Shown here in pieces: positions 35,606 through 56,896 of a stretch of DNA of 64,000 nt. The notes beneath the pieces are model-generated. The model ran no database searches and was not told where the DNA came from. It worked only from the letters and a program-made list of their open reading frames with translations. Positions within the stretch are counted from its first letter, which is position 1. The number at the start of each line of letters is the position of its first letter. Source of the DNA: Candidatus Omnitrophota bacterium (GTDB lineage: Bacteria; Omnitrophota; Gorgyraeia; Duberdicusellales; 4484-171); assembly GCA_041652815.1 (NCBI GenBank), contig JBAZGN010000002.1:302261-366260 (forward strand), in the 5' to 3' direction. Both the position numbers and the translations under genes were made by a program.

Positions 35606-35622
35606 TAATGGGGGTGTAGATA

Positions 35623-35799: not shown

Positions 35800-35886
35800 A
35801 ATTGCCCTTCTCACTCAGGGTTGTTTGGATCATTTAAATGGTGTATAATCAACTAATATTTCCTAATTTTAAGGAGAAGATAGCTA

Positions 35887-43577: not shown

Positions 43578-43652
43578 TAAATTGTGAGTTTTCTTGCCAC
43601 CCTAAGCGTGAGAAGGTATAATAATACTGGTTGTAGGGGGGGGGTGAAATTT

Positions 43653-43910: not shown

Positions 43911-43911
43911 T

Positions 43912-45012
43912 ATGTCAGAGAAAAAAACCATATTTATCACTGGCACAACAGGTTTGCTCGGCTCTTATTTATTAAAAATCCTTCTGGAAAATGGACATAA
44001 AGTTTATGCGTTGGCGAGAAATAAGAATGAGAAAGCTGCTAAAGACAGAGTCAAAGAAGCTTTAAGCTTTTGGGATGATAAAGTCATTGCTAAATATTCA
44101 GATAATTTGATAGTCTTAGATGGTGACATAACTGAACAGAATTTAGGTTTAAAAAAAGAAAATATTGAATTGTTACGAAAAGAAATAGAAGAAATCTTCC
44201 ATTGTGCCGCGCTTACTAAATTAAATTCACCCCTGGAGAGCTCGCGAAAAGTGAATGTAGAAGGTACAAAAAATATTTTAGAATTATGCTGTGATTGGAA
44301 TAACCGCGGCAAATTAAAAAAAGTAAATCATATAAGCACTATTTTTATCTACGGAGATTATCAGAATATTTTTCAAGAAAATAACTTAGATGTAGGGCAG
44401 AAGTTTAATACTTTCTACGAGCAAACAAAATTTGAAGCAGAAAAGCTAATAGGGGAATATAGAAATAAAGGGTTATGGATAGATATTTTTCGCCCCTGCG
44501 CAATCATAGGAGAATCTTTTACTGGGAAAATCCCTTCCCTCAGCTACGCATTACATCAGTTAATTCATATTTGGAGCAAAGGCCTTTTGGATTATTTCCC
44601 TCAAGGTTATTTCCTCAAAGCTGTTTGTGTTGACGAGCTTTCTCGCAGTATTTTTTACATTTCTTCTAAAAGTTTGGAAAAGAATAAAACCTATCATCCT
44701 TTTGGTTATGATTCACTTTCACTTGTGGAGCTTTTGAATTTATCGGTAGAGCATTTTAAATTTAAGAAATTATATATTGTTAGTAAAGAAGAATTTGTAA
44801 GCAAATCCACGCCTTTGCAGGTTATGCTTTTAAAGCATAACATCTTTTTTATTAATACCAACGTTAAAGCTGCTTCCGAGGCCACTAATAAATTTTTAAA
44901 ATATTATAATTTTGAATTTTCGCAATTTACAAAACCTTTACTCTTTAATATTCTTGCTTATGCAATTAAGACAGGTTTTATTATGAAATCGAAAGAGCGT
45001 CATAAAGACTAA
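43912..45012 (+). CDS. thioester reductase / fatty acyl reductase-type SDR (NAD_binding_4 family)
   Basis: IFITGTTGLLGSYLLKILL Rossmann motif, YxxxK region (FYEQTK), length and pattern of terminal reductase domains; adjacent to ACP. Confidence 0.65.
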   Translation: MSEKKTIFITGTTGLLGSYLLKILLENGHKVYALARNKNEKAAKDRVKEALSFWDDKVIAKYSDNLIVLDGDITEQNLGLKKENIELLRKEIEEIFHCAALTKLNSPLESSRKVNVEGTKNILELCCDWNNRGKLKKVNHISTIFIYGDYQNIFQENNLDVGQKFNTFYEQTKFEAEKLIGEYRNKGLWIDIFRPCAIIGESFTGKIPSLSYALHQLIHIWSKGLLDYFPQGYFLKAVCVDELSRSIFYISSKSLEKNKTYHPFGYDSLSLVELLNLSVEHFKFKKLYIVSKEEFVSKSTPLQVMLLKHNIFFINTNVKAASEATNKFLKYYNFEFSQFTKPLLFNILAYAIKTGFIMKSKERHKD

Positions 45013-45024
45013 AGGAGGATATAA

Positions 45025-47157
45025 ATGAATACATATTCATTACCACCATTAATCATTTCCTTATTGCTTTTTTCTTTAGGAATTTTTGTTTTTTTAAAAA
45101 ATAAAAGTAGTTCTTTAAATCGAGTATTCTTCTATTTGTGTTCTGTAAGCTCAATATGGTTATTTTTCTATTCGCTGGCATATAATACATCCGTTGAAGG
45201 AAAAGCGTTAACATTACTGAAAATAGGTTATTGCGGCGTAGTATTCATATCGATAACTTATTTTCATTATGCTGTATCCTTTTTAAGGATGAAAAAAATG
45301 CGTCCTGTTGTTTTCGCGTCATATTTTATTGGTATAGGTTGGATTTTGACTATATTCTTTACGCCATATTTTATGAGCGGAGTTTATAAATATTTTTGGG
45401 GATATTATCCTAAGGCTGGAATACTTCATCCTATTTTCTTAACTTTTTTTATAGGTTTGTTATCTTTCTCAATGGTTTTATATTCCTATTTCCTCTTTTT
45501 TAAAAAAGCTCTTTCTGCTATAGAAAAAATTCAGGTTAAATATATATTTTTGGCGTTTGCAATTTACAATTTAGCATGCATAGATTTTGTTCCTAATTAC
45601 GGGATAAGTATTTATCCATTTGGCTGTATTCCGACATTCTTTTTTCTCCTAATTTTTAGCTTCACAATAATTAAATATCGTCTAATGGATATCCGAATCT
45701 TTATCACTCGCGCGACTATCTTTATTTTTGTCTATACCTTTGTTTTGGGGTTGCCTTTATGGTTGGGATTTGCAACGAACCAATGGTTATGGGCAGTATT
45801 ATTAGTAGGTATTTTGTCGGCTATTGGCCCTTTTGGTTATAGCCACTTACGCCAACAGATTGAGAATGTTATCTTCAAGGAACGGCAGCGTTTGCAGGAA
45901 TATTTAAGGCATGCGGCTAAACGTATAGCCCAAATAAGCGATTTGCCTACTTTATGGCAAGCGCTCATTCAAGAGGCACGCAAAGCAGTTGATCCGGAAT
46001 TTGTTGAGCTCTATATTTTATCAAAAGAGGATAAGGCTTTTGTCTTAAATCAAAATAGTATCTTAGGCGATGCCCCTCATAACATTAAACAAATCTCTTT
46101 AGACTCTTTATTAATTAAAAACCTTATCCGGCATAAAAGAACAATACTTGTAGAAAGCTCTTTTGGATTGAATTTACCTCTGGAAACCATTGCCGTTGCC
46201 TTTTTCGCGGAAGGCGAGCTTTTTGGATTTCTGTTGTTAGGGCCAAAGCCCAAAAAAGCGCTTTATAACGAAGTTGACTTTGTTACCTTTGATATTTTCT
46301 CTTCCCAAGCTTCGCTCGCTATTGAAAATGCTAAACATTTTCAGGAGCTAAAACACTCTCAATTAGAACTGCTTCGCCAGGAAAACTTAAAATTCGTCCA
46401 GGTATTAGTTAAAGGCTTGGCGCACGAAATCCTTAATCCTTTGACTCCCCTGATGCATAGGATTGAGGATTTGGAGGGCGAGTCTTTGTTGAAATTATAT
46501 GAAGTGTATGAAAATAATATCCAACAGCTTGGAGAAAAAGAAAGTCTGAAATTTAAAGAATCCCTCTTAGGGTTACGCGACTCAACCAAATCATTAAAAA
46601 ATAACGCTCAGCATATCCACTTAATTGTTGATATGCTCAATAAAATGCAAAAAGGCGATGAGACAACCATAGGTCCGTTAGACTTGAAATCATTTCTTAA
46701 AGATGTTGTGCCGATGTTAGCCTTAGAAGTTGAGCCGCATATACAAGAAGGAATAACTGTTAATTGTGATATTGCGAATAATATCCATCCCATAAGAGGA
46801 AACCCCACGTTGTTTAAACAAATTTTTATCAACTTATATAAGAATTCTTGCGAAGCAATGAGAAATTTTCCTACTAAAATAATCAATATTTCCTGTAAAC
46901 TAGATGCGCAAAACTCAAAAGAAGCCTTGATTGAGTTTTCAGATACCGGTCCGGGCATATCTCCCGCGATTCTTTCAAAAATATTTACCCATGGTTTTAC
47001 TACTAAAGGCACAAAAGGTTCGGGTATTGGTTTAAGCCAGTGTAAAGCAATAATTGAAAAATTCGGCGGCACGATAAATATAGAATCTAAACAAAACCAG
47101 GGAACAAAATTCATTATCAAATTACCTATTTTGGGGGTGGGAAAAAATGTTAGTTAA
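45025..47157 (+). CDS. sensor histidine kinase with N-terminal polytopic membrane domain and GAF-like region
   Basis: ~7 TM helices, HisKA H-box LAHEILNPLTP, HATPase_c motifs (N-box INLYKNSCEAM, G-boxes DTGPGI, GSGIGLS). Confidence 0.8.
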   Translation: MNTYSLPPLIISLLLFSLGIFVFLKNKSSSLNRVFFYLCSVSSIWLFFYSLAYNTSVEGKALTLLKIGYCGVVFISITYFHYAVSFLRMKKMRPVVFASYFIGIGWILTIFFTPYFMSGVYKYFWGYYPKAGILHPIFLTFFIGLLSFSMVLYSYFLFFKKALSAIEKIQVKYIFLAFAIYNLACIDFVPNYGISIYPFGCIPTFFFLLIFSFTIIKYRLMDIRIFITRATIFIFVYTFVLGLPLWLGFATNQWLWAVLLVGILSAIGPFGYSHLRQQIENVIFKERQRLQEYLRHAAKRIAQISDLPTLWQALIQEARKAVDPEFVELYILSKEDKAFVLNQNSILGDAPHNIKQISLDSLLIKNLIRHKRTILVESSFGLNLPLETIAVAFFAEGELFGFLLLGPKPKKALYNEVDFVTFDIFSSQASLAIENAKHFQELKHSQLELLRQENLKFVQVLVKGLAHEILNPLTPLMHRIEDLEGESLLKLYEVYENNIQQLGEKESLKFKESLLGLRDSTKSLKNNAQHIHLIVDMLNKMQKGDETTIGPLDLKSFLKDVVPMLALEVEPHIQEGITVNCDIANNIHPIRGNPTLFKQIFINLYKNSCEAMRNFPTKIINISCKLDAQNSKEALIEFSDTGPGISPAILSKIFTHGFTTKGTKGSGIGLSQCKAIIEKFGGTINIESKQNQGTKFIIKLPILGVGKNVS

Positions 47158-47644
47158 AATCCTAATTGTTGACGATGATTTAGAAGTATTAAATTCATTA
47201 GGCAAAATATTTACCACTTTAATGAAGGGGTATCTGGTGCTTAACGCAACTTCTGCTAACGCTGGTTTAAGTATGTTAAAAGAACAAAGGCCTGATATCG
47301 TGATTGTAGATGTCCGGCTTGGGCCTGCTTCAGGAATGGATTTGATTGCAGATTATTGCCAGTGGATAAGCAGCCAAGGGGGCTATAAGCCAATTTTTAT
47401 CGTGATTACTGCTTATGATGACGCAGTAGCAAAGAAAAGAGCCGAAGAATTTAAGGTTGACGCTTTTTTAATGAAACCATTTAGCAAGGAAACTATACTA
47501 CATGCAGTTATTGACGGGGTATGCAAGATTTTACATCGAGAGCTAAATATTCTTGATGAAATGCGCAATCACTATAAAATGATATTAGATAAGATTAGCA
47601 CATTGGATAAGAAATTAAATGGCGAAGAGGGTAACCATGAGTAA
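47147..47644 (+). CDS. single-domain response regulator receiver protein
   Basis: ILIVDDD, IVDVRL (phospho-Asp), conserved K region. Confidence 0.65.
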   Translation: MLVKILIVDDDLEVLNSLGKIFTTLMKGYLVLNATSANAGLSMLKEQRPDIVIVDVRLGPASGMDLIADYCQWISSQGGYKPIFIVITAYDDAVAKKRAEEFKVDAFLMKPFSKETILHAVIDGVCKILHRELNILDEMRNHYKMILDKISTLDKKLNGEEGNHE

Positions 47645-48014
47645 AATATTGATAGCAGACGATGAAAAAGAAATTTCTGAAATGATTGGAACGTCACTGC
47701 GCCGCTCGGGATATGAAGTTTTTTCTGCTTTAGATGGGAAAACAGCGATAGAAACTGCGAAATGCGAAAACCCCGACGTAATTTTACTTGATCTGCGTTT
47801 TCCTAAACCCGGCCTGGATGGTATAGAAATATTAACAGCAATCAGGGAATTTAATAAAGAGGTAAAAGTTATTCTTACTTCTGGATTAGGCGCCGAGGCT
47901 AAAGAAATAGAGCAGGCGCAAGGATTAGGTATCAGTAAATTTCTGCCTAAGCCGTTAGATATCGCACAATTAAAAGAAACCCTCAGGGAAATGGTCGGTA
48001 ATAACACAGCTTAA
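47619..48014 (+). CDS. single-domain CheY-like response regulator receiver protein
   Basis: ILIADDE, ILLDLRFP, LTSGLG, K in FLPKP. Confidence 0.7.
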   Translation: MAKRVTMSKILIADDEKEISEMIGTSLRRSGYEVFSALDGKTAIETAKCENPDVILLDLRFPKPGLDGIEILTAIREFNKEVKVILTSGLGAEAKEIEQAQGLGISKFLPKPLDIAQLKETLREMVGNNTA

Positions 48015-48027
48015 TAGCGGTTTTAAA

Positions 48028-48312
48028 ATGTTATTTTTCCGCAAGAAAAAAGATGAAAAGTTAGAACAAGTAAAGCAAGAAATTTTCTCAAAAATTAAGC
48101 CCATATTATCTAAGATGCTTGAGGTAGATGAGGAAAAAATTACCCCAAAAGCCAGAATAGCCGAAGATTTAGGTGCAGACTCATTAGATTCAGTAGATAT
48201 TACAATAAAATTAGAAGAAGTATTTAATATTGAAATACTTGATGAAGACGTAGAAAAAATGAAAACCGTTGACGATATTCTTACTTATTTAGCACACAAT
48301 AAAGAAGGTTAA
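48028..48312 (+). CDS. acyl carrier protein-like (second copy)
   Basis: EDLGADSLDSVDI motif. Confidence 0.6.
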   Translation: MLFFRKKKDEKLEQVKQEIFSKIKPILSKMLEVDEEKITPKARIAEDLGADSLDSVDITIKLEEVFNIEILDEDVEKMKTVDDILTYLAHNKEG

Positions 48313-48314
48313 CT

Positions 48315-48739
48315 ATGTCCACCTGGCGAGATTTATTCCACACTTTAGCAAATAAGCAGAATTTGATAAGTATAGGCACAAAGGCAACCAAAGAAGCCCT
48401 TGAGGATTGCTTAAAAAAAGATGTGTCAAAAGAATTAAAAGAGAAAATACTTGATAATGCTGCAAATGGAAAATATTTTAGCCTATCTTTATCAGCGCAA
48501 TATTTCCGAAAACGAAAAACGTGCTTCTGTGGTTTTCAAGCAATTCGCCTCAAACAAGGGATAACTTTAACAAGAGCTGGCAATTTCTAATTCCTTCAGT
48601 TATGGAAAGAGGCGTGATCCTGGGCGTTTTATTGCAATACGGCATGATCGAAAGTGATGATATAAATTTAAAAATAACGGCGCAGGGGTATAACTTCTTG
48701 CAATACATAGGGTTAATTCCTTACCCTTCCCAGGTATAG
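48315..48739 (+). pseudogene. possible frameshifted gene (two overlapping ORFs 48315..48590 and 48521..48739)
   Basis: Consecutive same-strand ORFs overlapping by 70 nt in different frames; could be an authentic frameshift, a programmed shift or an assembly error. Confidence 0.3.
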
Positions 48740-48754
48740 ACGTATTAGTTTTAG

Positions 48755-49615
48755 ATGATGGAAGATAATTTTATGGAGATAATTCTTAATATAATATCGG
48801 GCGGTCTTTCTGGTGCGTTGTTAGTATGGCTTTTGCGTAATTGGATTTCTGAGCGCATAAAGGAAAGTATAAAGCACGAGTATGCTCAAAGGCTTGAAGC
48901 ATATAAGGCCGAGCTTAACTCCAATATGCAGTCAGCATTACACGAACATCAGTTGTATCAACTTCGAACATCCCTCTTTTTTGAACATCAACGCTTGGCG
49001 TTTGCTTCTATTCTTAGCCAGATTGCTGAAACTAAACAAAAGTGGTTTGATGTTGGGTATGATTCAGAGTTAGGATGGCAAGAACAAGCACCGGTACCTA
49101 CTGGCGAATACGACAAACTTAAAAAGTCCTATTATGATCATCAACTTTTTTTAGATCAGGATTGCATTTTCGCTCTTGACCTAGTGCTTGAGGCCATGCG
49201 CGATTCATTCCCAGTTCAAGATGGCGATGGCACTTTGCATCATAGAGATTGTGAAGAGCCTTACGAGCGGTTGGTATTTTTGCAAGAACGAGTTGCTCTA
49301 CTTTTTCAAGAAAAAATAGGGTTCAGGGTGTCGCAAGAAATGAAGATTGAACTCGCGCTTTTAGGGGCAATTAGATTGCTAAATCGTTATCATTTTAAAG
49401 ATATTGATTTGCCGGTTAAAGGATCTCTGAAATTAACTGCTGATGACAAAGCTTTTGATGCTGTAATCAAGGCGGGCAACAATAAGGTGGAATTGATTTC
49501 AAAGCTAACTGAATTTAGGAATCATCTGGAGAAGGAGGGTTTCTTTCATGATGCATGGGAAAAGGCAACCCGATGTCTTAACCTCCTTTCTGCCGAAAAG
49601 AAAACGCCCGCGTGA
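48755..49615 (+). CDS. hypothetical protein with N-terminal TM helix
   Basis: IILNIISGGLSGALLVWLL anchor; no family recognised. Confidence 0.4.
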   Translation: MMEDNFMEIILNIISGGLSGALLVWLLRNWISERIKESIKHEYAQRLEAYKAELNSNMQSALHEHQLYQLRTSLFFEHQRLAFASILSQIAETKQKWFDVGYDSELGWQEQAPVPTGEYDKLKKSYYDHQLFLDQDCIFALDLVLEAMRDSFPVQDGDGTLHHRDCEEPYERLVFLQERVALLFQEKIGFRVSQEMKIELALLGAIRLLNRYHFKDIDLPVKGSLKLTADDKAFDAVIKAGNNKVELISKLTEFRNHLEKEGFFHDAWEKATRCLNLLSAEKKTPA

Positions 49616-49710
49616 AATTTGAAGCGGTTGGCAAAGAGGTACGAGACTCGTTTGCCCCATTTTATTTAATATAAAACATAGATGATGGTGGTTGGGTAGA
49701 AGGAGATTAG

Positions 49711-50559
49711 ATGTCAGAAAAATCCGATTTAACTGTCCAAGAAGTCTTGGGTAATACAGCTTTGACCGATAAAATCCAAGTTTTATATCACTATACTAGC
49801 ATGGATTCATTAGAGAAAATAATGAAAAATGAGTGCATGCATTTTTCTCATATCTCATGGATGAATGACTATAGCGAATATGATTGGGGTTTAAATATGT
49901 TTCAAGAAAAATTGTTAAAAATGGTCAGCGACAAAACAAAGGAAATGGAAGAGAGTTTTAAGAAATTTATTAATATTATAAAAAAGGATAAGGATAAAGA
50001 TAATCCTTGTGTGGGATCGTTCACGGCTTTAAAAGAATCATTATCTCAATGGCGAGGCTATGGAGATAAGGGTGGTGGTATATGCATAGGTTTTGACGCA
50101 GGCCTTATGAAACGAATTTGCAAAGAAAATAATTTTATTATTGGAGATGTATTGTATGGTGATTCCTTTGATGGGTCTTGTTCTAATTTTCTTGCGAAAA
50201 TTTCTGGTTTTATTTCAGCATATACCAATGATCCAGCAGATGCTTTAGCCAGAGTCGGTATGCTTATTTCTCTTTTAGCTTGTTTTGTTAAACATGAAGG
50301 TTTTCAAGAAGAAAAAGAAATTAGAATAGCGATACCCTTCCCAGAAAAGTTACCCAACAAGCTTAAAGGTAAATTATATGTGCCTTATTTTTTGTTTGAT
50401 TTCAAAGAAAATTTTTCATCAATTTTTAAAGAAATTTGGGTTGGTCCTGCAGCTAACCAAGAACTCTTAGCTAAGTCTGTTTCGCTGCTTATAAATGAGT
50501 GTGGTTTGGATGATTCTTGTAAAATCTATAAATCCAATATACCATACAGAATAATATAA
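49711..50559 (+). CDS. DUF2971-family protein
   Basis: N-terminal LYHYTSMDSLEKIMKNE...SHISWMNDYSE pattern typical of DUF2971. Confidence 0.55.
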   Translation: MSEKSDLTVQEVLGNTALTDKIQVLYHYTSMDSLEKIMKNECMHFSHISWMNDYSEYDWGLNMFQEKLLKMVSDKTKEMEESFKKFINIIKKDKDKDNPCVGSFTALKESLSQWRGYGDKGGGICIGFDAGLMKRICKENNFIIGDVLYGDSFDGSCSNFLAKISGFISAYTNDPADALARVGMLISLLACFVKHEGFQEEKEIRIAIPFPEKLPNKLKGKLYVPYFLFDFKENFSSIFKEIWVGPAANQELLAKSVSLLINECGLDDSCKIYKSNIPYRII

Positions 50560-50697
50560 TTACAAAATAATATTTAGGAATCAATAGTTCACTTTTCTCG
50601 GCAATCGCAGTCGTCCTGTTTCAATCCTTCGGATTTCCACAACGGACTTTGTGCGCTTGCCTTCACCCACATAAAGAAAGAGGAATAACACCTTAAT

Positions 50698-51053
50698 ATT
50701 TCCCCCGCCGCCAGCCGAAAAGGATTTATTGAAAAGGGAAAAAATTGCGCGAAGCGCAAAAGCCTGACGAAAGCGGGTGCCTTGAGGAAGGGTATCAAAA
50801 CGCTACGACCGCGGGATAAACGTGGTTCCGCAGGCTTGCCGAGCCCCGGAGCCGCCCTAGCGGCGCAGGGAGCGCGAGGCAAGACTGCTTGAGAGAGCGA
50901 GCGGCCCAGCGAGCGAGGCAGTGAGCCGAGCGGCAGCGAAGGCGAACGGAGACTCCACCACCCACCAAGCCCGCCCCAGCGGGCGGTGCATATTTCATAC
51001 CAAAAGCAACGGAAGGATGTTTTTGAGAGACTTGTATAAAACGAACCAAGGGT
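50698..51053 (-). repeat. GC-rich long repeat A, copy A2 (inverted relative to A1)
   Basis: Reverse complement matches 33338..33702; spurious ORFs in both copies translate to the same peptides (MVRFIQVSQKHPSVAFGMKYAPP...). Confidence 0.85.
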
Positions 51054-51230
51054 CAACCGAATGTGCGTATGCAGACTTTTTTTCCGGAATTTGAATTTTG
51101 CATAGATTTTTCCTGTCTAAAATATTTGCGCGCGCTTCAGAAAATATAAAATTAAATGGTTCAAAAAAGGCAAAAGAAATTCTTTTTTCCAGATGGGCCG
51201 AACCCACCGGCGGGGCGATTTTGATGTTTT
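51054..51230 (-). repeat. 177-bp repeat B, copy B1 (inverted copy of 55587..55764; contains miaB promoter + first 16 codons in reverse orientation)
   Basis: Reverse complement identical or nearly so to 55587..55764; abuts A2 at shared core cattcggttg. Confidence 0.85.
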
Positions 51231-51385: not shown

Positions 51386-51444
51386 TTCCCTCCCCTTAAT
51401 AATTTACCTTGACACATAGTGTAAAGTGCTGTAAAGTAACGACA

Positions 51445-51627
51445 ATGGAGAAAAGATATAATCTTAGCGAAGCGGCTAAAGAATTGGGTTTAACTCGTCA
51501 GGGCCTTTATTATTGGATAAAGAAGGGTTGGGCTACGCCTAAGCGAGATTATAAGGGGTATCCGGTTTTCACTGAAATTGATTTAAAAAAGATTAAAGAG
51601 TGGCGTGATAAGTTAGAGAATTTCTAA
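51445..51627 (+). CDS. small HTH DNA-binding protein, excisionase/AlpA/MerR-like (candidate recombination directionality factor)
   Basis: MEKRYNLSEAAKELGLTRQGLYYWIKKG helix-turn-helix; promoter-like cttgac...taaagt upstream; lies in the recombinase cassette. Confidence 0.5.
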   Translation: MEKRYNLSEAAKELGLTRQGLYYWIKKGWATPKRDYKGYPVFTEIDLKKIKEWRDKLENF

Positions 51628-53456
51628 TGGAAAATAAAGAAGCAGTTAGATATATTAACGATTTAATTCAAAATATCCTTCCTGGGGTGGCAATCGATAT
51701 CCATCAGCAAAACCATTTTAACTATTCTTTTAACGTCAAAAATAACGGAGAATCATGTAATATCATTTTCGGGCGCGATGATATGGATGATTTTGATAAA
51801 GCTCTGCAAAGTGATCATAACTCTGATTATTATCGTGGATTAGAGGGGAGTATTAAATTTAAAATTTATATCTCATTAGGAAAAGCTGGTCTTATCCCTA
51901 AATTTCCGATTGCTAAACAAATTTTGGATGAAAAGCGAGATTGGCATAATGATGTTATGGTCCATTTTGTTCGAGAAGATTGGTTTTATAAGGTTTTAGA
52001 GGTCGGACTTAAAGACCTAAAAATGTTTCTGGAAGATATTATAGAAAAACATGGTCCTCAATCAGAGATTGAAAATGAACTGGAACATATCGAAGGATTA
52101 TTGTCCTATTACAATAAACATAAAAGTTTTGAGGAAAGAGGAGCCTCTGACGTTAGTCTGGGTTATCTGAAAGCGGCAGCTATTGCCGTGGTTCTTAAAA
52201 AAGAAAAAGAGTGTCAAGAAATAAAAATTCCACGCGTTTTGCAAACTAAAAATAAAGAAATCTATGATATTGTTGATGAACTAAGAAAAGATTTTTTTCT
52301 ACAGACAAAAATGCCAGATTGCGTGTATGATTATGCTGAAAATATTAATTTAGGTCATGGGAGGAAAGAAGATGAATTTCAGATGGTCAATATCCCTTGC
52401 GGGCCTTTAGCAAAACAGACATGCGATTTGAAAACAAAAATTGATCAGGATTTTTCTAAGAAAAATATTTTTATTGATATCCCATATACTAACTATGAAG
52501 ATTGTGAATTAGCTTTAAGAGAATTATTGAAAGAATTTGGGTTTAACCCGGTCGTCGCTAAAGACAGGTTAACTTGCAATGCAGTCCTTTGTAAGGTTTG
52601 CAAATTAGTAAAAATATGTAGATTTGGAATTGTAGACATATCTTCTGCAAGTAATAGTGTTGCTTATGAATATGGATTAATGCATGGATTAGGCATGAAA
52701 GTTTGTCTTTTGTTACGTACAGAGAGTGAAAAGTTTACTGATATAGAAGGATTGGAACATATCTCTTACTCGGGGTTAACTAGCCTTAAGATTGCAGTTT
52801 CAAGGTGGATTCTAGATAATATTGATGACATTAATCGTTCTTTAGTGGAAGAATTTATTTCAAAAAATGAGAGCTTACTCAAAGAAAATGGGGATACACC
52901 TTTGCAACTCCTATTACCTAAATCCATTATTGAATCGTCAAGAGAAGTAGGGTTGCAACCTGTTGACTCAAAAATTCTTGAAATATTGGGGGACATTATT
53001 ATTGCAAAGGAAGATGTGGGAATGATTGTAGAAACCATAGCAGAAGTTATAAAAAATGCAGAAAAATATAAAATTTCTCAAGAGGATGTTTTTGAATCAT
53101 TAGATGTGTTGGAATCAAGATATTTTTTGAAAATTTTAAAACATCTTGGTGATCCAAAAACCTATCATCTTAGTATTTCGATATCCGGATTTCTTAAGTA
53201 TTGTGAATTATATTTAAGAAACTTTGGAGAAATAGTAAAAAGTATAGCCTATGAGATATTAAAAAATAATATTATGTCCAGCAAGGAGATATCTCAAAAA
53301 GTTAATTGTAAGCCAATAGTAGCATATGCTTTATTCAAGTTTTTAGAGGAAAATGACTATATAATGGCTTCAGAACATGCGATAACGCAAGATATTGTAA
53401 TTTACGACCTTAAAGGCGATGGTAAAAGATGGTTCAATGATGTTCTCAATTCTTAA
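51627..53456 (+). CDS. hypothetical 609-aa protein with central nucleoside 2-deoxyribosyltransferase-like (NDT/TIR-like Rossmann) domain
   Basis: FIDIPY...FGIVDISSASNSVAYEYGLMHGLGMKVCLL resembles the NDT motif D..S.G...E.GyA.A.GKPV with conserved Glu; N- and C-terminal domains unrecognised. Confidence 0.45.
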   Translation: MENKEAVRYINDLIQNILPGVAIDIHQQNHFNYSFNVKNNGESCNIIFGRDDMDDFDKALQSDHNSDYYRGLEGSIKFKIYISLGKAGLIPKFPIAKQILDEKRDWHNDVMVHFVREDWFYKVLEVGLKDLKMFLEDIIEKHGPQSEIENELEHIEGLLSYYNKHKSFEERGASDVSLGYLKAAAIAVVLKKEKECQEIKIPRVLQTKNKEIYDIVDELRKDFFLQTKMPDCVYDYAENINLGHGRKEDEFQMVNIPCGPLAKQTCDLKTKIDQDFSKKNIFIDIPYTNYEDCELALRELLKEFGFNPVVAKDRLTCNAVLCKVCKLVKICRFGIVDISSASNSVAYEYGLMHGLGMKVCLLLRTESEKFTDIEGLEHISYSGLTSLKIAVSRWILDNIDDINRSLVEEFISKNESLLKENGDTPLQLLLPKSIIESSREVGLQPVDSKILEILGDIIIAKEDVGMIVETIAEVIKNAEKYKISQEDVFESLDVLESRYFLKILKHLGDPKTYHLSISISGFLKYCELYLRNFGEIVKSIAYEILKNNIMSSKEISQKVNCKPIVAYALFKFLEENDYIMASEHAITQDIVIYDLKGDGKRWFNDVLNS

Positions 53457-53471
53457 TATCAGGCAATGAAT

Positions 53472-53546
53472 ATGTTTATAGGGATTTATATTAGAGTCTC
53501 AACCGAAGACCAAGCGTAGGAGAATTATTCTCTTGAAGTGCAATGA
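53472..53546 (+). pseudogene. fossil fragment of a serine recombinase N-terminus
   Basis: MFIGIYIRVSTEDQA*..ENYSLEVQ* parallels the intact recombinase MKVVFYTRVSTEDQAKEGYSLEVQ at nucleotide level. Confidence 0.6.
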
Positions 53547-53610
53547 CAATATTTAATCTATTATGAAAAATTAAAGCAGAGTCGTAGGAATTGATTGAGG
53601 AGTGAAATAG

Positions 53611-54126
53611 ATGAAAAAGAAACTGTGGGATGAAAAAAAATATACTGATATTTTAAAAGAAGTTGGTGAGGGGCGTTATAAAATCTTCAATCCAGATGAC
53701 CCTTTTATATCGTATTTGTCGCCTGGATTATTTGATAAGTATGAATATAAATTTAACTGTGTTTGTCTTGCTACATCCACAACTATTGCTACTGCGACAG
53801 TGGATTACAAGTGCGAAGGGTTTCTTATACCGAAACATTCTCAGGTAGTGTTATGGCGCAATTTTCGCTATTGTACTCATGACGGATCACCTCACCTTAA
53901 TGCAGATGATAATATTATATTTCCTGACCAATCTGGCGATGTATGGAAAGTTTCTAAAACAGATGCCTACGATCATTATGTCGCAATTGCTTCATGGGCA
54001 GGACTTCAGACTATCACATCGGTCTATCATTTACCCGATCAACCTTGTGGTTTGTATCCGCAGTATATTGAGAAGGGCGCAAACGTGCCAGTGAAATTTG
54101 TTAAAGTTGAAAGCGATAAACCATGA
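53611..54126 (+). CDS. hypothetical 171-aa protein
   Basis: RBS gaggagtg; no family recognised; immediately upstream of and overlapping the recombinase start. Confidence 0.4.
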   Translation: MKKKLWDEKKYTDILKEVGEGRYKIFNPDDPFISYLSPGLFDKYEYKFNCVCLATSTTIATATVDYKCEGFLIPKHSQVVLWRNFRYCTHDGSPHLNADDNIIFPDQSGDVWKVSKTDAYDHYVAIASWAGLQTITSVYHLPDQPCGLYPQYIEKGANVPVKFVKVESDKP

Positions 54127-55772
54127 AAGTAGTTTTTTACACTCGCGTATCAACCGAAGATCAAGCTAAAGAAGGCTATTCGCTTGAGGTCCAAAGGGAA
54201 TATCTTGAATCTTTTGCTGAACGTGAAGGTTTTGAAATCTTCAAAGTTTACTGTGATGATGGTATAAGCGCTTATTCAACACGCAGACCTGCGTTACAGG
54301 GGTTACTTGCTGACGCGAAGGCAAAGCGGTTTGAGTTAGTGCTGGTTTATAAAATAGACAGGTTTAGCCGGAATCTTAAAGACTTACTGATTTTGGTTGA
54401 TGAGCTTTTGGGCTATGGCGTGGGGTTTAAGTCTGCCACAGAGCCGTTTGATTCTACAACGTCAGCCGGAAAGTTGATGTTTCAGCAATTGGGTAGCTTT
54501 GCGGAGTTCGAGCGCAATAGGTTAGCGGAGCGTGTATTCCCCGGCATGATTAAAGGTGTTCAGGCTGGGAATTGGCAGGGCGCTCGGTATGCGCCATTTG
54601 GGTATCACTATAACAAGCCGGAAAAGCTTCTTGAGGTGGTTGATGATGAGGCAAAGGTTGTCCGGTTGATTTATCAGATGTATCTTGAAGGCAGAAGCAC
54701 GCGGGATATTGTTAATTATTTGAATCGCAATGGTTTTAAATCCCGCGCCGGTTTAAAGTTTTACGATAAGTTTATCGGTGATGTTTTGAAGAACCGCATT
54801 TATACCGGCCAACTTATTTGGAATAAAAAGCATTACGACAAGAACCAGAAAACCAAAAAGCATTTCAAATATGTCAAAAATGACCCTGCCAAAATTATTA
54901 TTTCCCAAGGCCGTCACCAGCCGATTATTTCCTTGGAAGATTTTGAGAAAGCTCAAAATCTTCTTGCCAATAAAAAACGCACTTGGCGGCCAAGAGTAAG
55001 AAATCAGGAATATCTTTTATCTGGCTTGTTAAGTTGTGCCAAGTGTAATTCAAATTATTGCGGCAACCTTTCCATATCTAATCATCATACCGGTATCAAG
55101 AAGCGCTGGTATCGTTGTTCCGGTCCGCTGTCCCACGGCATTAGGTGCAAGAACCGCGCCGTCAAAGCCGCCGAAGTTGAAGCCTTGACTGACAGTGTTG
55201 TTGCTCGTTTAGTGGAAAGTGAGGGGTTTAAAGACAGCCGATGGACGACCGTGACTGGCACAAATGGGAGTTTTTCCGCGTTTTTTGACCAAAACCCTGC
55301 CAGTCTTCGCCAAGAGCTTGTTGAAAACAAGCAAAAACAAGGAAAGCTTACTGACGCTTACCTGGATAATTTGCTTGGCGAAGACGTTTTTCATGCTAAG
55401 ATGGATGAGCTTCGTTTGCGCGAAGATGAGCTGAAGAAAAACCTTGCCGGCATTGAACTTTTGGCGCTTGAGCGTGAGCGCTCCGAGGGGTATCTGAACA
55501 GGGTTAAGGACTTTCTTGACGGTTACGACGAAGGGCTTACCAAGGTAGGTTTTGAACACAAAAGGCAGATGGCCGGACTGCTTTTTAAAAACATCAAAAT
55601 CGCCCCGCCGGTGGGTTCGGCCCATCTGGAAAAAAGAATTTCTTTTGCCTTTTTTGAACCATTTAATTTTATATTTTCTGAAGCGCGCGCAAATATTTTA
55701 GACAGGAAAAATCTATGCAAAATTCAAATTCCGGAAAAAAAGTCTGCATACGCACATTCGGTTGTCAAATGA
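54123..55772 (+). CDS. large serine recombinase (resolvase/invertase catalytic domain + recombinase domain + zinc ribbon)
   Basis: YTRVSTEDQ with catalytic Ser, LVVYKIDRFSRN motif, C-rich zinc-ribbon region (CAKCNSNYCG...CSGP...C); final ~60 codons lie inside repeat B2. Confidence 0.85.
   Translation: MKVVFYTRVSTEDQAKEGYSLEVQREYLESFAEREGFEIFKVYCDDGISAYSTRRPALQGLLADAKAKRFELVLVYKIDRFSRNLKDLLILVDELLGYGVGFKSATEPFDSTTSAGKLMFQQLGSFAEFERNRLAERVFPGMIKGVQAGNWQGARYAPFGYHYNKPEKLLEVVDDEAKVVRLIYQMYLEGRSTRDIVNYLNRNGFKSRAGLKFYDKFIGDVLKNRIYTGQLIWNKKHYDKNQKTKKHFKYVKNDPAKIIISQGRHQPIISLEDFEKAQNLLANKKRTWRPRVRNQEYLLSGLLSCAKCNSNYCGNLSISNHHTGIKKRWYRCSGPLSHGIRCKNRAVKAAEVEALTDSVVARLVESEGFKDSRWTTVTGTNGSFSAFFDQNPASLRQELVENKQKQGKLTDAYLDNLLGEDVFHAKMDELRLREDELKKNLAGIELLALERERSEGYLNRVKDFLDGYDEGLTKVGFEHKRQMAGLLFKNIKIAPPVGSAHLEKRISFAFFEPFNFIFSEARANILDRKNLCKIQIPEKKSAYAHSVVK
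55587..55764 (+). repeat. 177-bp repeat B, copy B2 (recombinase 3' end + miaB promoter and first 16 codons)
   Basis: Inverted copy of 51054..51230; ends at core cattcggttg inside the miaB start. Confidence 0.85.
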
Positions 55773-56896
55773 ACGTCAGGGACAGCGAAGCTCTGCTTGG
55801 ATTATTTTTGGAGAAGGGATACAAGAGCGCAGATAATCCAAAAGACGCGGATGTGATTTTGCTTAATACCTGCGCCGTTCGTGCGCATGCCGAGCATCGT
55901 GTTAGGTCAATATTAGGCTCATATAAAAAGCTGTCAGCTTTCAGTCGTCAGTCATCAGCCAGCAAGAAAAATAAAGCTGAAAGCCGGAAGCTGAGGGCTG
56001 ACAGCTGTAAGATAATCGGTCTAATCGGCTGTATGGCAGCTAACAGCGGCAAAGAGATATTTGAACGAATGCCGCACGTGAATTTGATTGTATCGCCGGC
56101 AAAATTACATAAAATTCCCGCGTATATAGAAAAAATAAAGAAAGAAAATATAAGAATAATCGATTTGGAGGATAAAGAAAGGGAAGAGGATTTTTATAAT
56201 GCTTCTTACCGCGTAAAACCAGGCTATGCGCAAGTCGTAATTTCTACAGGATGTTCCAACTATTGCTCTTATTGCGTTGTGCCGAGCGTTCGTGGGGAGT
56301 TACGTTTGCGAAAGCCAAAGGATATTATTGCGGAAGTTAAAAGAAATGTTTCCCTGGGGATTAAAAAGATTACTTTGCTTGGGCAAAATGTTAATGATTA
56401 TCGCGATAAGCAGGGTGTAAATTTCGTTGATTTGTTGAAAATGGTTGAAGAGCTTGACGGGGTTGAGGAAATTGATTTTCTTACACCACACCCTAAAAAC
56501 ACCACAAAAGAATTATTTAAACTAATGGCTAAATCAAAAAAGATTAGAAAGTATTTACATTTGCCATATCAGTCCGGTTCTGATAAAATCTTACGCCTTA
56601 TGCATAGAGGTTATACCAAGAAGGAATATCTCGCGCTAGTAGACGACTATAAAACAATAGTCGGTGGCACCATTGGAACAGATATTATAGTTGGTTTCCC
56701 AACGGAAACAGAAGAAGATTTCCTGCATACTAAAGACATTCTGGAAAAAGTAAGGTTTATGGGCGCTTATATATTCAAATATTCTCCACGTCCCGGAACG
56801 CATGCGCAGAAATTAAAAGATGATGTGCCGCAGAGAGTTAAAGAGAAAAGGCACGCGGAGCTTTTGGAATTACAAAAGAAAATATCCAATGCATAA
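55715..56896 (+). CDS. miaB: tRNA methylthiotransferase (radical SAM MTTase, MiaB-like)
   Basis: N-terminal TFGCQMN, radical SAM CxxxCxxC (CSNYCSYC), TRAM C-terminus; low-complexity insert SRQSSASKKNKAESRKLRADS. Confidence 0.85.
   Translation: MQNSNSGKKVCIRTFGCQMNVRDSEALLGLFLEKGYKSADNPKDADVILLNTCAVRAHAEHRVRSILGSYKKLSAFSRQSSASKKNKAESRKLRADSCKIIGLIGCMAANSGKEIFERMPHVNLIVSPAKLHKIPAYIEKIKKENIRIIDLEDKEREEDFYNASYRVKPGYAQVVISTGCSNYCSYCVVPSVRGELRLRKPKDIIAEVKRNVSLGIKKITLLGQNVNDYRDKQGVNFVDLLKMVEELDGVEEIDFLTPHPKNTTKELFKLMAKSKKIRKYLHLPYQSGSDKILRLMHRGYTKKEYLALVDDYKTIVGGTIGTDIIVGFPTETEEDFLHTKDILEKVRFMGAYIFKYSPRPGTHAQKLKDDVPQRVKEKRHAELLELQKKISNA

What the first reader, a model, noticed from the sequence alone, without database searches (positions are those of the whole stretch)
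51445..55772. Recombinase cassette: excisionase-like HTH, 609-aa protein with NDT/TIR-like Rossmann core, 171-aa protein, large serine recombinase
The cassette is bounded by repeat B. Its promoter-proximal gene is a small HTH protein of excisionase/AlpA type. The 609-aa protein has a central motif FGIVDISSASNSVAYEYGLMHGLGMKV. This resembles the nucleoside 2-deoxyribosyltransferase / SLOG-TIR-like signature, whose conserved Glu acts as nucleophile. It is flanked by unrecognised N- and C-terminal domains. Such nucleotide-processing Rossmann domains recur in anti-phage effectors. The 171-aa partner is uncharacterised. This could be a compact mobile defense or abortive-infection module.
Basis: partly seen in the sequence, partly recalled or inferred. 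Interest (0 to 1): 0.7.

Follow-up and report, generated by a model that had tools for sequence, protein, structure and literature searches.

The report
Integrase module carrying TIR-like defence cargo
The four genes are the integrase end of a 22-kb mobile island inserted into the start of the tRNA-modification gene miaB; the 609-aa protein is swappable, defence-type cargo with a TIR/NDT-like enzyme core, and the flanking inverted repeat is a conserved, so far unexplained spare copy of the element's attachment site.

Summary
All four ORFs are present at the stated coordinates. A perfect 177-nt inverted repeat (51054-51230 / 55588-55764) bounds them.

The "609 + 171 gene pair" idea fails. The two genes never co-occur in any other locus examined.

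The cassette is the recombination module of a ~22.4-kb island (33339-55764) integrated in the first codons of miaB. It consists of an HTH gene, a variable cargo slot and a large serine recombinase (LSR). 75 related loci from several candidate phyla were recovered:
- miaB follows the LSR in 50 of 54 loci.
- The HTH gene precedes the LSR in 53 of 67.
- In relatives the slot holds Gabija, PsyrTA, Ppl and PifA-like genes.

Two further points are new:
- The crossover lies inside the LSR ORF, so integration clips a conserved 17-26-aa tail.
- 27 of 35 testable loci keep an inverted, intact attP-like copy beside the HTH gene. Its role is unknown.

Overall this is a new variant of known kinds, of moderate to high interest.

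The parts
33309..33346 (+). attL. Displaced original 5' end of miaB (ATG...; encodes MSKYSIYIKTFG) ending in the core TTCGGCTG, joined to the element arm P'.
   Evidence: Sequence read. Site search. Junction logic B1-TG-P'. attL-type junctions of the same kind occur in L094 and L136.
33347..33702 (+). P'1: GC-rich element arm. It begins with the conserved ACCCTTGG...TACAAG and contains hairpins.
   Evidence: Inverted repeats I2-I4 with 50699-51064, 93-98%. P' arms in other elements are 70-80% identical at the nucleotide level.
33703..50698 (+). Island cargo region: DUF1016 nuclease-like gene, type I restriction-modification hsdM/S/R (35887-40792), unknowns, ACP plus reductase, histidine kinase/response regulator, a 286-aa unknown, and a DUF2971 protein.
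   Evidence: Pfam. PADLOC PDC-S31 weak hit for DUF2971. PHROGs.
50699..51053 (-). P'2: second, inverted copy of the P' arm. On the - strand it continues the LSR-tail reading frame (DPWFVLYKSLKNILPLLLV*) and contains a terminator-like hairpin (50759-50745).
51054..51230 (-). Left arm of the inverted repeat (reverse complement of R). Together with P'2 it forms an intact, inverted attP-like site R-TG-P'.
   Evidence: 100% complementary to 55588-55764. The arms end exactly at the core in about 20 related loci.
51409..51437 (+). Best promoter-like site (TTGACA-17-TAAAGT), directly upstream of the HTH gene.
   Evidence: This is a consensus match only.
51445..51627 (+). 60-aa MerR/excisionase-like HTH protein, the conserved partner of the LSR. 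It is a candidate directionality factor or regulator.
   Evidence: PF13411 scores 28.2 bits against a cut-off of 21.6; PF12728 is below its cut-off. phrog_66 'excisionase and transcriptional regulator', E = 1.3e-4. A homologue lies upstream of the LSR in 53 of 67 loci.
51627..53456 (+). 609-aa cargo protein with three parts: an N-terminal domain (aa 1-250, no known family), a TIR/NDT-like domain, and a variable C-terminal region with weak winged-helix hints.
52383..52874 (+). TIR/NDT-like domain (aa 253-416) with a conserved Glu (E348, in YEYG) and four conserved Cys (CxxxxxxxC ... CxxC).
53611..54126 (+). 171-aa orphan protein, a second and independent cargo gene. Its conserved motif is WRxFRYCxHDGxPHLNADDNIIFP.
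   Evidence: 8 homologues. Contexts. Alignment. No match in Pfam, PADLOC, PHROGs, NCBIfam or PDB.
54123..55772 (+). Large serine recombinase in its integrated (clipped) form of 549 aa. It reads across the crossover and stops at a TGA inside the miaB codons CAA ATG AAC.
   Evidence: PF00239, PF07508 and PF13408. phrog_95 integrase, E = 2e-126. The 566-aa full-length form P0170 is in a second public assembly.
55588..55764 (+). Right arm R of the inverted repeat. It encodes the last ~60 aa of the LSR and comprises the 127 nt upstream of miaB plus its first 16 codons. It ends in the core TTCGGTTG (55757-55764), forming attR (R-TG-B').
55578..55605 (+). 28-nt block CTGCTTTTTAAAAACATCAAAATCGCCC that spans the inner boundary of the repeat.
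   Evidence: Two or fewer mismatches in 26 loci whose LSRs are only 56-69% identical. Its function is unknown.
55715..56896 (+). miaB (tRNA methylthiotransferase), the integration target. Its present 5' end is supplied by the element.
   Evidence: TIGR01574 scores 360.5 bits against a cut-off of 355.3. PF00919 plus PF04055. The downstream synteny (TPR/SPOR gene, miaA, hflX) is shared with related loci.

Best explanation
The cassette is the integrase end of a ~22.4-kb integrative island (33339-55764) that a large serine recombinase (LSR) inserted into the conserved T-F-G-C-Q-M-N codons at the 5' end of miaB.

Shown by sequence:
- The three junctions are attL B1-TG-P' at 33339, an inverted attP-like R-TG-P' at 51061, and attR R-TG-B' at 55757.
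- The crossover lies in or just before the final TG of the 8-nt core TTCGG(C/T)TG.
- The element supplies miaB with a new upstream region and its first 16 codons (arm R).
- The old miaB 5' end is stranded at attL.

The module HTH - [cargo slot] - LSR is a conserved backbone in Omnitrophota, Elusimicrobiota, Margulisiibacteriota/Saganbacteria and Auribacterota. The slot is hypervariable. In this window it holds two unrelated cargo genes, the 609-aa and the 171-aa protein.

Inferred for the 609-aa protein:
- It is a single-chain sensor-effector of the defence type.
- Its N- and C-terminal domains, which vary across the family, sense a trigger.
- They activate a Cap12/PycTIR-like TIR/NDT-fold N-glycosidase domain with catalytic Glu348.
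- That domain most likely hydrolyses NAD+, or alternatively a nucleotide, causing growth arrest of the infected cell.

Shown for the LSR:
- Its ORF crosses the crossover, so the full-length enzyme (566 aa) exists only in the attP configuration.
- Integration replaces a conserved 17-26-aa tail by two residues.

Inferred for the LSR:
- The HTH protein is its directionality factor or regulator.
- The clipped tail is part of how the integration state is sensed.
For: Element and att logic:
- Repeats.
- Junction sequences.
- The island's left flank, MT253, is 92% identical in protein to the L006 methyltransferase, which lies 3 kb upstream of miaB there.
- attL-type junctions occur in other metagenomes (L094, L136).

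Family-wide architecture:
- 75 loci were recovered.
- miaB lies downstream in 50 of 54; the HTH gene lies upstream in 53 of 67; the inverted repeat is present in 27 of 35.

Cargo slot:
- 35 ORFs fall in 28 clusters across 24 loci.
- PADLOC hits: GajA 1e-239 with GajB 1e-122, PsyrT 3e-250 with PsyrA 4e-81, Ppl, and PifA-like.

TIR/NDT domain:
-.
- Model pLDDT 90, pTM 0.86.
- Foldseek: SPARTA TIR-APAZ, SfSTING, NDT and BcmB at E = 3e-4 to 1e-3.
- Glu348 is conserved in at least 90% of sequences in two alignments.
- Homologues of the 609-aa protein sit in mobile or defence-type neighbourhoods (L007, L014, L017).

LSR tail:
- Protein-level conservation of the P'-encoded extension, with all four Pro codons used.
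- The 566-aa isoform P0170.
- Among 121 close relatives, 66 have short tails and at least 14 have long tails. All listed contigs above 25 kb carry the short form.
Against: - No biochemical or phenotypic data exist.
- The window protein itself is below the Pfam gathering scores: PF10137 19-20 bits against 24.7, PF05014 12-13 bits against 28.8.
- No cyclase, SIR2/SLOG or other known partner of TIR systems is present.
- PADLOC does not recognise the 609-aa protein.
- The N-terminal domain has no recognisable fold match. The C-terminal region is modelled poorly.
- The role of the HTH protein as a directionality factor rests only on linkage.
- The purpose of the inverted attP copy is not explained by this account.
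Confidence: 0.7

Rival explanations
1. HTH-609-171-LSR is a compact, self-contained mobile defence module bounded by its terminal repeats, and the 609-aa and 171-aa proteins work together as a two-gene system.
For: The four genes are tightly packed, with overlapping start and stop codons, behind one promoter-like site. The unit recurs as one identical block in five other assemblies.
Against: - Those five contigs are the same element at 100% identity, not independent co-occurrence.
- None of the 75 related LSR loci has either gene.
- Homologues of the 171-aa protein sit in the same slot without a 609-aa homologue (L008-L010). They also sit next to XRE-type HTH genes in other islands (L011, L013).
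- 609-aa homologues occur without a 171-aa homologue.
- The repeat arms are R copies whose outer ends are attP-like and attR junctions. The true island ends are 22 kb apart.
Confidence: 0.08
2. The 4.36-kb segment between the repeat arms is an invertible switch. Recombination between the two R arms, catalysed by the LSR or by homologous recombination, flips the segment. That would join the LSR body to the spare R-TG-P'2 copy and rebuild the full-length 566-aa integrase, or break it again. The flip would toggle the element between a locked and a mobilisable state.
For: - The inverted intact attP-like copy is conserved in 27 of 35 loci across phyla, with arms kept 91-100% identical while P' arms diverge 8-20%.
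- The left copy always retains an open, conserved tail-coding frame.
- A second public assembly of the same strain annotates the 566-aa LSR joined to P'.
- Many relatives have long tails on short contigs.
Against: - In every assembly where the orientation can be read, the LSR faces miaB. This includes loci with diverged arms and paired-end-resolved SPAdes contigs. A flipped state, if it exists, is therefore a minority.
- attP x attR is not a canonical LSR substrate pair.
- Mismatches between arms show no third-codon-position bias (7, 11, 10), so there is no sign of coding constraint on the left R copy.
- The 566-aa gene call could equally come from the excised circle or from an arbitrary assembler path through the repeat.
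- Related clades integrate in miaB without any repeat (L008, L057, L063).
Confidence: 0.2
3. The inverted repeat is an assembly artefact, for example a mis-join between the integrated and excised forms or between strains.
For: - The repeat is longer than common k-mers.
- L032 shows two different miaB genes in inverted orientation around the unit, which looks chimeric.
- Two public assemblies of this strain disagree on what follows the LSR.
Against: - The inner junction (51230|51231) joins the reverse complement of R to unique sequence. This cannot arise from mixing integrated and circular forms.
- That junction is present in five independent assemblies.
- The architecture is found in 27 loci plus 11 partial ones from different assemblers and phyla. 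These include a curated complete genome (L043) and loci whose arms differ by 5-10% and so pose no graph ambiguity.
Confidence: 0.03
4. The 609-aa protein does not defend against phage. It serves the element itself, for example as an addiction or toxin module stabilising the island, or as a nucleotide-modifying or salvage enzyme of the NDT/DNPH1/MilB type.
For: - The slot in relatives also carries toxin-antitoxin-type cargo (PsyrTA; RES in L213).
- No known defence-system model matches the protein.
Against: - The domain family is most similar in sequence to Cap12/PycTIR TIR domains.
- Shuffling of N- and C-terminal domains around a constant effector core is typical of defence sensor-effector fusions.
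- Relatives are fused to REC, HEAT, sigma-54 AAA and bacterial Death-like domains.
- The neighbours are restriction and defence genes.
Confidence: 0.2

Closest known systems
Large serine recombinase (serine integrase) islands and prophages, e.g. SCCmec CcrAB/CcrC, XisF, SPbeta/A118-type integrases
   Same: - Resolvase, recombinase and zinc-ribbon domain architecture.
- Best NCBIfam similarities are CcrB, CcrC and XisF.
- Site-specific insertion into a conserved coding sequence.
- Short common core.
- A small accessory protein encoded next to the recombinase.
   Different: - All NCBIfam scores are far below the equivalog cut-offs.
- The target is the 5' end of miaB.
- The crossover lies 17-26 codons before the stop of the integrase's own ORF.
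- Most members carry a second, inverted attP-like copy of about 180 nt or more beside the accessory gene.
- I found no description of these features (literature searches).
dusA-specific genomic islands (Farrugia et al. 2015, PMC4482086)
   Same: Islands that insert in the 5' end of a tRNA-modification gene and replace that 5' end with sequence supplied by the island, leaving the remnant at the other end.
   Different: Those islands use a tyrosine integrase family and proteobacterial hosts. Here the recombinase is a serine recombinase, the target is miaB and the hosts are candidate phyla.
Cap12 (TIR-STING) and PycTIR effector TIR domains (Pfam PF10137), and the wider TIR/NDT N-glycosidase fold (ThsB, SPARTA TIR-APAZ, NDT, DNPH1, MilB/BcmB)
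   Same: - Five-stranded flavodoxin-like fold.
- A conserved N-x-x-(F/Y)-E-x-G motif aligned with Cap12.
- Structural matches to these domains.
   Different: - Below the Pfam thresholds.
- Extra Cys4 signature (C-x7-C ... C-x2-C).
- No cyclic-nucleotide sensor domain.
- No cyclase or ThsA partner.
- Novel N-terminal domain and variable C-termini.
Defence-gene hotspots in mobile elements (P2/P4 hotspots, SXT ICE hotspot 5, integron cassettes); from my own knowledge of the literature
   Same: A fixed position between conserved backbone genes of a mobile element that carries different defence systems in different relatives.
   Different: The backbone is a minimal HTH plus LSR pair. The hosts are uncultivated phyla. 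The slot sits inside the recombination operon itself.
Integration-dependent genetic switches of mycobacteriophages (attP inside the repressor gene; commentary PMC3694055)
   Same: attP lies inside a coding sequence, so that integration changes the C-terminus of a regulatory or recombination protein.
   Different: There the clipped gene is the repressor and the recombinase is a tyrosine integrase. Here the integrase clips itself, and a spare inverted copy of the 3' end is kept.
Invertible segments with their own serine invertase (Hin, Gin, Cin) and the yeast 2-micron FLP inverted repeats
   Same: A recombinase gene lies inside a segment flanked by inverted repeats that contain its recombination core.
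   Different: The enzyme is a large serine integrase, not a small Fis-dependent invertase. The two sites are attP-like and attR. No flipped orientation has been demonstrated.

Membership tests
Large serine recombinase | N-terminal resolvase catalytic domain with the Ser nucleophile | tested here: met
   PF00239, E = 5.7e-38, aa 3-150. The motif YTRVSTEDQ is present.
Large serine recombinase | Recombinase domain plus zinc-ribbon domain C-terminal to the catalytic domain | tested here: met
   PF07508 (1.3e-23) and PF13408 (3.3e-9). phrog_95 integrase, 2.4e-126.
Large serine recombinase | attP x attB recombination leaving hybrid attL and attR that share a short core | tested here: met
   B1-TG-P' at 33339 and R-TG-B' at 55757. 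A C/T difference in the core segregates with the left arm. The same junction pattern is seen in about 20 loci, and attL-type sites occur in L094 and L136.
Large serine recombinase | Catalytic activity, unidirectionality and dependence on a directionality factor | not testable with these tools
   Needs in vivo or in vitro recombination assays.
Pfam PF10137 (Cap12/PycTIR TIR domain) | Score at or above the Pfam gathering threshold | tested here: not met
   19.1-19.9 bits against a cut-off of 24.7 for the window protein. However, 14 of 17 close relatives and 42 of 92 remote relatives hit it, best E = 3.5e-10.
TIR/NDT N-glycosidase fold | Flavodoxin-like five-stranded parallel sheet superposable on TIR and NDT structures | tested here: met
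TIR/NDT N-glycosidase fold | Conserved catalytic Glu in the (F/Y)-E-x-G motif | tested here: met
   E348 is at least 90% conserved in A1 and A4. It aligns with the NVVFEFG motif of Cap12 7un8. That this Glu is catalytic is taken from knowledge of the families, not tested here.
Pfam PF05014 (nucleoside 2-deoxyribosyltransferase) | Score at or above the Pfam gathering threshold | tested here: not met
   12.4-12.8 bits against a cut-off of 28.8.
CBASS / Pycsar / Thoeris systems | Signal-producing partner (CD-NTase, PycC cyclase, or ThsA/ThsB pairing) and a cyclic-nucleotide sensor domain on the effector | tested here: not met
   No such domain or gene in the protein, the cassette or the island by Pfam and PADLOC.
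Excisionase/MerR-type HTH accessory protein | MerR-like or excisionase-type HTH domain | tested here: met
   PF13411 scores 28.2 bits against a cut-off of 21.6. PF12728 (excisionase type) scores 20.8 against 27, so it is not met. phrog_66, E = 1.3e-4.
Excisionase/MerR-type HTH accessory protein | Conserved linkage with the recombinase | tested here: met
   A homologue lies upstream of the LSR in 53 of 67 loci, abutting it where no cargo is present.
Excisionase/MerR-type HTH accessory protein | Stimulates attL x attR recombination | not testable with these tools
   Needs an assay.
Serine-invertase invertible segments (Hin/Gin type) | Small invertase with C-terminal HTH acting on inverted sites | tested here: not met
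   The enzyme has the full LSR architecture of 549/566 aa.
Serine-invertase invertible segments (Hin/Gin type) | Both orientations present in a population | tested here: inconclusive
   Only the LSR-to-miaB orientation is seen in assemblies. A 566-aa LSR joined to P' exists in a second assembly, but that is also explained by the excised circle or by assembler choice.
Islands targeting the 5' end of a tRNA-modification gene (dusA-type) | Element replaces the 5' end of the target gene and leaves the remnant at the far junction | tested here: met
   R supplies MQNSNSGKKVCIRTFG. The remnant MSKYSIYIKTFG lies at 33309-33346.
Islands targeting the 5' end of a tRNA-modification gene (dusA-type) | DusA-associated tyrosine integrase | tested here: not met
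   The recombinase is a serine recombinase.

The most novel reading that the evidence does not exclude
The LSR family has built its attachment site into its own coding sequence. It also keeps an inverted spare copy of that 3' end plus attP. Together these may form a self-contained state switch:
- Integration clips a conserved C-terminal peptide from the integrase.
- Inversion of the HTH-cargo-LSR segment between the two perfectly homogenised arms would rebuild the full-length enzyme, and with it the competence to move.

If so, this would be a previously undescribed way for a serine-integrase element to control directionality. It would operate on a backbone that doubles as a defence-gene shuttle across several uncultivated phyla.
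Probability: 0.2. Interest if true: 0.8.

Novelty: new variant of a known kind. Interest (0 to 1): 0.58.

Why it matters
1. It defines a widespread, compact integrative backbone (HTH plus LSR, attB in a universally conserved MiaB motif). This backbone moves defence systems among Omnitrophota, Elusimicrobiota, Margulisiibacteriota and relatives, phyla for which almost nothing is known about mobile elements or immunity.
2. Its cargo slot is a ready-made place to look for new defence genes. The 609-aa TIR-like protein, the 171-aa orphan and about 20 unannotated slot proteins are candidates.
3. Serine integrases with a conserved natural target and predictable attP/attB pairs are useful genome-engineering parts.
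4. An integrase that clips its own C-terminus on integration, plus a conserved inverted spare site, points to an unstudied layer of directionality control.

Tried and rejected
- Pfam, PADLOC, PHROGs and NCBIfam on the whole 609-aa and 171-aa proteins: no hits.
- PDB profile search with the shallow alignment A2: only noise.
- Full-length AF2 model: pLDDT 61.8, with the signature motif disordered. Its Foldseek search gave nothing significant. The model was replaced by a domain model built on a deeper alignment.
- PDB profile search for the 171-aa family: nothing.
- tRNA genes as integration targets: none in the window.
- P' arm as a structured RNA: no Rfam match (best E = 0.33). Its folding energy is no better than shuffles (z = 0.29).
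- Coding constraint on the left R copy: arm mismatches are not enriched at third codon positions (7, 11, 10). This argues for gene conversion rather than selection on coding.
- Fetching the 22,795-nt contig that carries the 566-aa LSR: not retrievable.
- The 16-nt att pattern scan of metagenomes gave mostly chance matches. Only about 10 of 119 stretches were genuine sites.
- The idea that the repeat is host-derived miaB upstream DNA was rejected. R encodes the conserved LSR tail and is 70-75% conserved between elements.
- I looked by eye for a -1 frameshift heptamer in the ultraconserved 28-mer. It does not fit the X XXY YYZ pattern in frame.

Full report
**1. What is in the sequence**

- A 60-aa HTH protein (51445-51627).
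- A 609-aa protein (51627-53456). Its ATG overlaps the HTH stop.
- A 171-aa protein (53611-54126).
- A 549-aa large serine recombinase, LSR (54123-55772). It carries the resolvase, recombinase and zinc-ribbon domains.

The strongest promoter-like match in the region lies directly upstream of the HTH gene.

The cassette is bounded by a perfect 177-nt inverted repeat, 51054-51230 / 55588-55764. The organism is a Candidatus Omnitrophota MAG (source names).

**2. The repeat and the real element**

The right arm (R) is not a terminus.
- It encodes the last ~60 residues of the LSR.
- It comprises the 127 nt upstream of miaB plus its first 16 codons.
- It ends exactly at an 8-nt core, TTCGGTTG, inside the conserved MiaB codons T-F-G-C-Q-M-N.

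The left arm is the reverse complement of R. Its outer end is joined to a GC-rich sequence (P') that begins ACCCTTGG...TACAAG.

A second copy of P', in the opposite orientation and 93-98% identical, lies 17.7 kb to the left at 33347-33702. It is preceded by ATGAGTAAGTATAGCATATATATAAAGACGTTCGGCTG. This encodes MSKYSIYIKTFG, a stranded 5' end of miaB.

The window therefore holds three related sites:
- attL: B1-TG-P'1, at 33339.
- An inverted, intact attP-like site: R-TG-P'2, at 51061.
- attR: R-TG-B', at 55757.

A C/T difference in the core stays with the left arm, and the arms diverge immediately after TG. This places the exchange at or just before the final TG.

The insert between the methyltransferase gene (32461-33222) and miaB is 22.4 kb. 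It carries:
- a DUF1016 nuclease-like gene,
- a type I restriction-modification system,
- an ACP/reductase pair,
- a two-component system,
- a DUF2971 protein,
- and then the cassette.

In the related contig L006, the 92% identical methyltransferase lies only 3 kb from miaB.

**3. The cassette belongs to a widespread element family**

A scan of one genome per species with the LSR found 75 loci. They come from Omnitrophota, Elusimicrobiota, Margulisiibacteriota/Saganbacteria, WOR-1 and Auribacterota.
- miaB follows the LSR at ~95-180 nt in most cases, in 50 of the 54 loci with enough sequence.
- An HTH homologue precedes the LSR in 53 of 67 loci.
- In Elusimicrobiota and WOR-1 the HTH gene abuts the LSR.
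- In Omnitrophota 0.7-6.4 kb of cargo lies between the two genes.

That slot is hypervariable: 35 ORFs from 24 loci fall into 28 sequence clusters. It holds recognised defence or toxin systems:
- Gabija: GajA 1e-239, GajB 1e-122.
- PsyrTA: 3e-250 and 4e-81.
- Ppl.
- A PifA-like KAP NTPase.
- HerA-like and UvrD-like helicases.
- RhuM.

Neither the 609-aa nor the 171-aa protein occurs in any of these 75 loci.
- The 171-aa family (8 members) fills the slot alone in L008-L010, as HTH-171-LSR-miaB.
- Elsewhere it follows an XRE-type HTH in islands without any recombinase.
- The 609-aa family occurs without it.

The window's slot simply holds two independent cargo genes.

**4. The 609-aa protein**

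The family has 22 close members, nearly all from Omnitrophota. It is modular:
- an N-terminal domain shared by some members,
- a highly conserved central domain (aa ~253-416),
- and unrelated C-termini.

*Sequence evidence for the central domain*
- It scores below the Pfam thresholds in the window protein: PF10137 E = 0.0014, PF05014 E = 0.17.
- 14 of 17 close relatives hit PF10137, and 13 of 17 hit PF05014.
- An exhaustive profile search found 1,506 cluster representatives.
- Of 92 remote representatives, 42 match PF10137 (best 3.5e-10) and 16 match PF05014. These are fused to REC, HEAT, sigma-54 AAA, bacterial Death-like and other domains.
- A profile search of PDB sequences puts Cap12 (TIR-STING, 7un8) first, at E = 0.0018. 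It aligns on the N-V-x-Y-E-L-G motif. MilB-type CMP glycosidase, NDT and DNPH1 follow.

*Structure evidence for the central domain*
- With a 45-sequence alignment the domain folds confidently: pLDDT 90, pTM 0.86, with a five-stranded flavodoxin-like order.
- Foldseek gives SPARTA TIR-APAZ, SfSTING, NDT and BcmB at E = 3e-4 to 1e-3.

*Conserved residues*
- Glu348 is conserved in at least 90% of sequences.
- Four Cys residues are conserved: C15, C71 and C74 are invariant or nearly invariant, and C7 is the consensus residue (domain numbering). This suggests a zinc site, which is an inference.

The data do not settle whether the substrate is NAD+ (TIR-like) or a nucleotide (NDT/MilB-like).

*What is absent or unresolved*
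- No cyclase, SIR2/SLOG or sensor domain of the known TIR systems is present.
- The N-terminal domain is confidently modelled, but no fold match was found for it.

*Context of homologues*
- L007: next to DAC, HNH and PLD genes and a resolvase fragment.
- L014: next to HindIII restriction-modification, an OLD-type nuclease and another LSR.
- L017: next to a large helicase, a Rep gene and a tyrosine integrase.

My reading, which is inferred, is a single-chain sensor-effector of the abortive-infection type.

**5. Features of the recombination module that I did not find described**

*(a) The LSR ORF always reads across the crossover*

In the integrated state it ends two codons later, at a TGA inside miaB. 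The tail is ...(V/A)(K/R)*. Read into P', the frame continues for 17-26 codons that are conserved at the protein level:
- Omnitrophota: DPWF.LYK..KPFLF..F..EL.
- Elusimicrobiota: (D/E)LW.R(L/F).RT...L..LY.
- All four proline codons are used at one position.

So the full-length integrase exists only in the attP configuration, and integration clips it.
- A second public assembly of this very strain annotates exactly the predicted 566-aa protein on a 22,795-nt contig. That is about the size of the island.
- Among the 121 closest LSRs, 66 have the clipped end. At least 14, and probably about 35, have a long tail.
- All listed contigs longer than 25 kb carry the clipped form.

*(b) The inverted attP-like copy next to the HTH gene is conserved*
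- It is present in 27 of 35 loci with enough flanking sequence, plus 11 partial cases.
- Arms are 90-250 nt long and 91-100% identical.
- These loci include a curated complete genome.
- In three loci that do not abut miaB (L058, L060, L213), both sides are attP-type. The repeat then extends into P', reaching 337-600 nt.
- Some clades that also integrate in miaB lack the repeat (L008, L057, L063).

*(c) A 28-nt block at the inner boundary of the repeat is nearly invariant*

The block CTGCTTTTTAAAAACATCAAAATCGCCC shows two or fewer mismatches in 26 loci whose LSRs are only 56-69% identical.

**6. What the repeat may be for**

The simplest topology consistent with all junctions is a circular element. 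In it, two inverted copies of R-TG-P' separate a small segment (HTH-cargo-LSR) from a large cargo segment. Integration goes through the copy next to the LSR.

A switch model is attractive but unproven. In that model, inversion between the arms would rebuild the full-length LSR.
- For: the conservation of the repeat, the homogenised arms, the open tail frame in the spare copy, and the 566-aa isoform.
- Against: the LSR faces miaB in every assembly where orientation can be read. Differences between the arms show no coding bias (7, 11, 10 by codon position). The 566-aa call could come from the excised circle or from assembler choice.

An assembly artefact is excluded. The inner junction is present in five independent assemblies, and some loci have diverged arms that pose no graph ambiguity.

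The P' arm shows no sign of being a structured RNA. It does carry a terminator-like hairpin, oriented to stop transcription entering from the miaB-type 5' region.

**7. Comparison with known systems**

The element works like other serine-integrase islands.
- Its closest NCBIfam similarities are CcrB, CcrC and XisF, all far below their cut-offs.
- It resembles the dusA-specific islands, which replace the 5' end of a tRNA-modification gene (PMC4482086). Those use a tyrosine integrase and a different target gene.
- The self-clipping of a protein by an attP inside its gene recalls the integration-dependent switches of mycobacteriophages (PMC3694055). There the clipped gene is the repressor.
- The cargo slot behaves like the defence hotspots of other mobile elements.
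- Literature searches for serine recombinases with miaB, or for such inverted attP copies, found nothing relevant.

**8. Verdict**

- The fold interpretation is supported.
- The two-gene system and the "bounded module" interpretations are not supported.
- The cassette is the integrase plus cargo slot of a miaB-targeting island family. The 609-aa TIR/NDT-like protein is one of many interchangeable, mostly defence-type cargo genes.
- The novelty lies in the element architecture (self-clipping integrase, conserved inverted spare site, ultraconserved 28-mer) and in a new TIR-like architecture.
- Both are variants of known kinds rather than new categories.

Noticed in passing
window 55578-55605: The 28-nt block CTGCTTTTTAAAAACATCAAAATCGCCC, with a TTTTTAAAAA palindrome, lies at the inner edge of the repeat. 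It is conserved with two or fewer mismatches in 26 loci, although the surrounding LSR genes are only ~70% identical in DNA. This implies a constraint at the DNA or RNA level. Its function is unknown.
   Followed up: partly
window 33347-34170 and 50590-51053: GC-rich (~55-60%) non-coding tracts in a 38% GC genome. They contain repeated GCCCGC-TTGG-GCGGGC-type hairpins and a CCACCCACCCAA motif, and the motif also occurs at 51306-51321. There is no Rfam match and no excess folding energy. A terminator-like hairpin lies at 50759-50745 on the - strand.
   Followed up: partly
window 35887-40792: A complete type I restriction-modification system (hsdM, hsdS, hsdR) lies inside the same island. It is preceded by a DUF1016/YhcG-like nuclease gene (34473-35519).
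   Followed up: partly
window 43584-45012 and 45025-47644: The island also carries an acyl-carrier protein plus a thioester-reductase-like NAD-binding protein. It further carries a 7TM-GAF histidine kinase with a response regulator. This is unusual cargo for a defence island.
   Followed up: no
window 49711-50559: A DUF2971 protein with weak PADLOC PDC-S31 hits and a strong match to phrog_1762. Together with the neighbouring 286-aa orphan (48755-49615) it may be another defence candidate.
   Followed up: no
window 8746-8938: A cobalamin riboswitch (RF00174, 92.5 bits). It is the only Rfam family above threshold in the window.
   Followed up: no
window 30997-31138 / 32297-32438, and 8540-8581 / 11672-11713: Two further direct repeat families: one of 142 nt at 79% identity, and one 42-nt CGCAAA-rich unit at 90% identity. 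Both lie outside the island.
   Followed up: no
L136 (metagenome contig Ga0114923_10019330) 188-2223: A decayed relative. An attL (B-TG-P') and a ~60-nt R remnant joined to miaB flank a single radical-SAM-like gene. There is no HTH or LSR gene.
   Followed up: partly
L032 6501-6954 / 11471-11948: Two different miaB genes (77% nt identity) in inverted orientation flank one HTH-cargo-LSR unit. This is probably a chimeric assembly path through the repeat. It warns that contigs of this family can be mis-joined.
   Followed up: partly
L213 981-4034: A diversity-generating retroelement (reverse transcriptase, bAvd, Lcl_C target protein), HepT/MNT and an IS110 transposase sit in the large cargo segment of a related element. 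RES and DUF4238 genes lie around its HTH gene.
   Followed up: no
L006 1951-4026: A 691-aa homologue of the 609-aa protein sits directly upstream of miaB, in the same chromosomal position. No recombinase, HTH gene or recognisable att remnants are present. The methyltransferase next to it is 92% identical to the window's, whereas miaB is only 49% identical. This suggests a recombination breakpoint or an old, eroded island.
   Followed up: partly
window 51437-51445: The -10-like hexamer ends 7 nt before the HTH start codon. The HTH-609 transcript may therefore be leaderless or nearly so.
   Followed up: no
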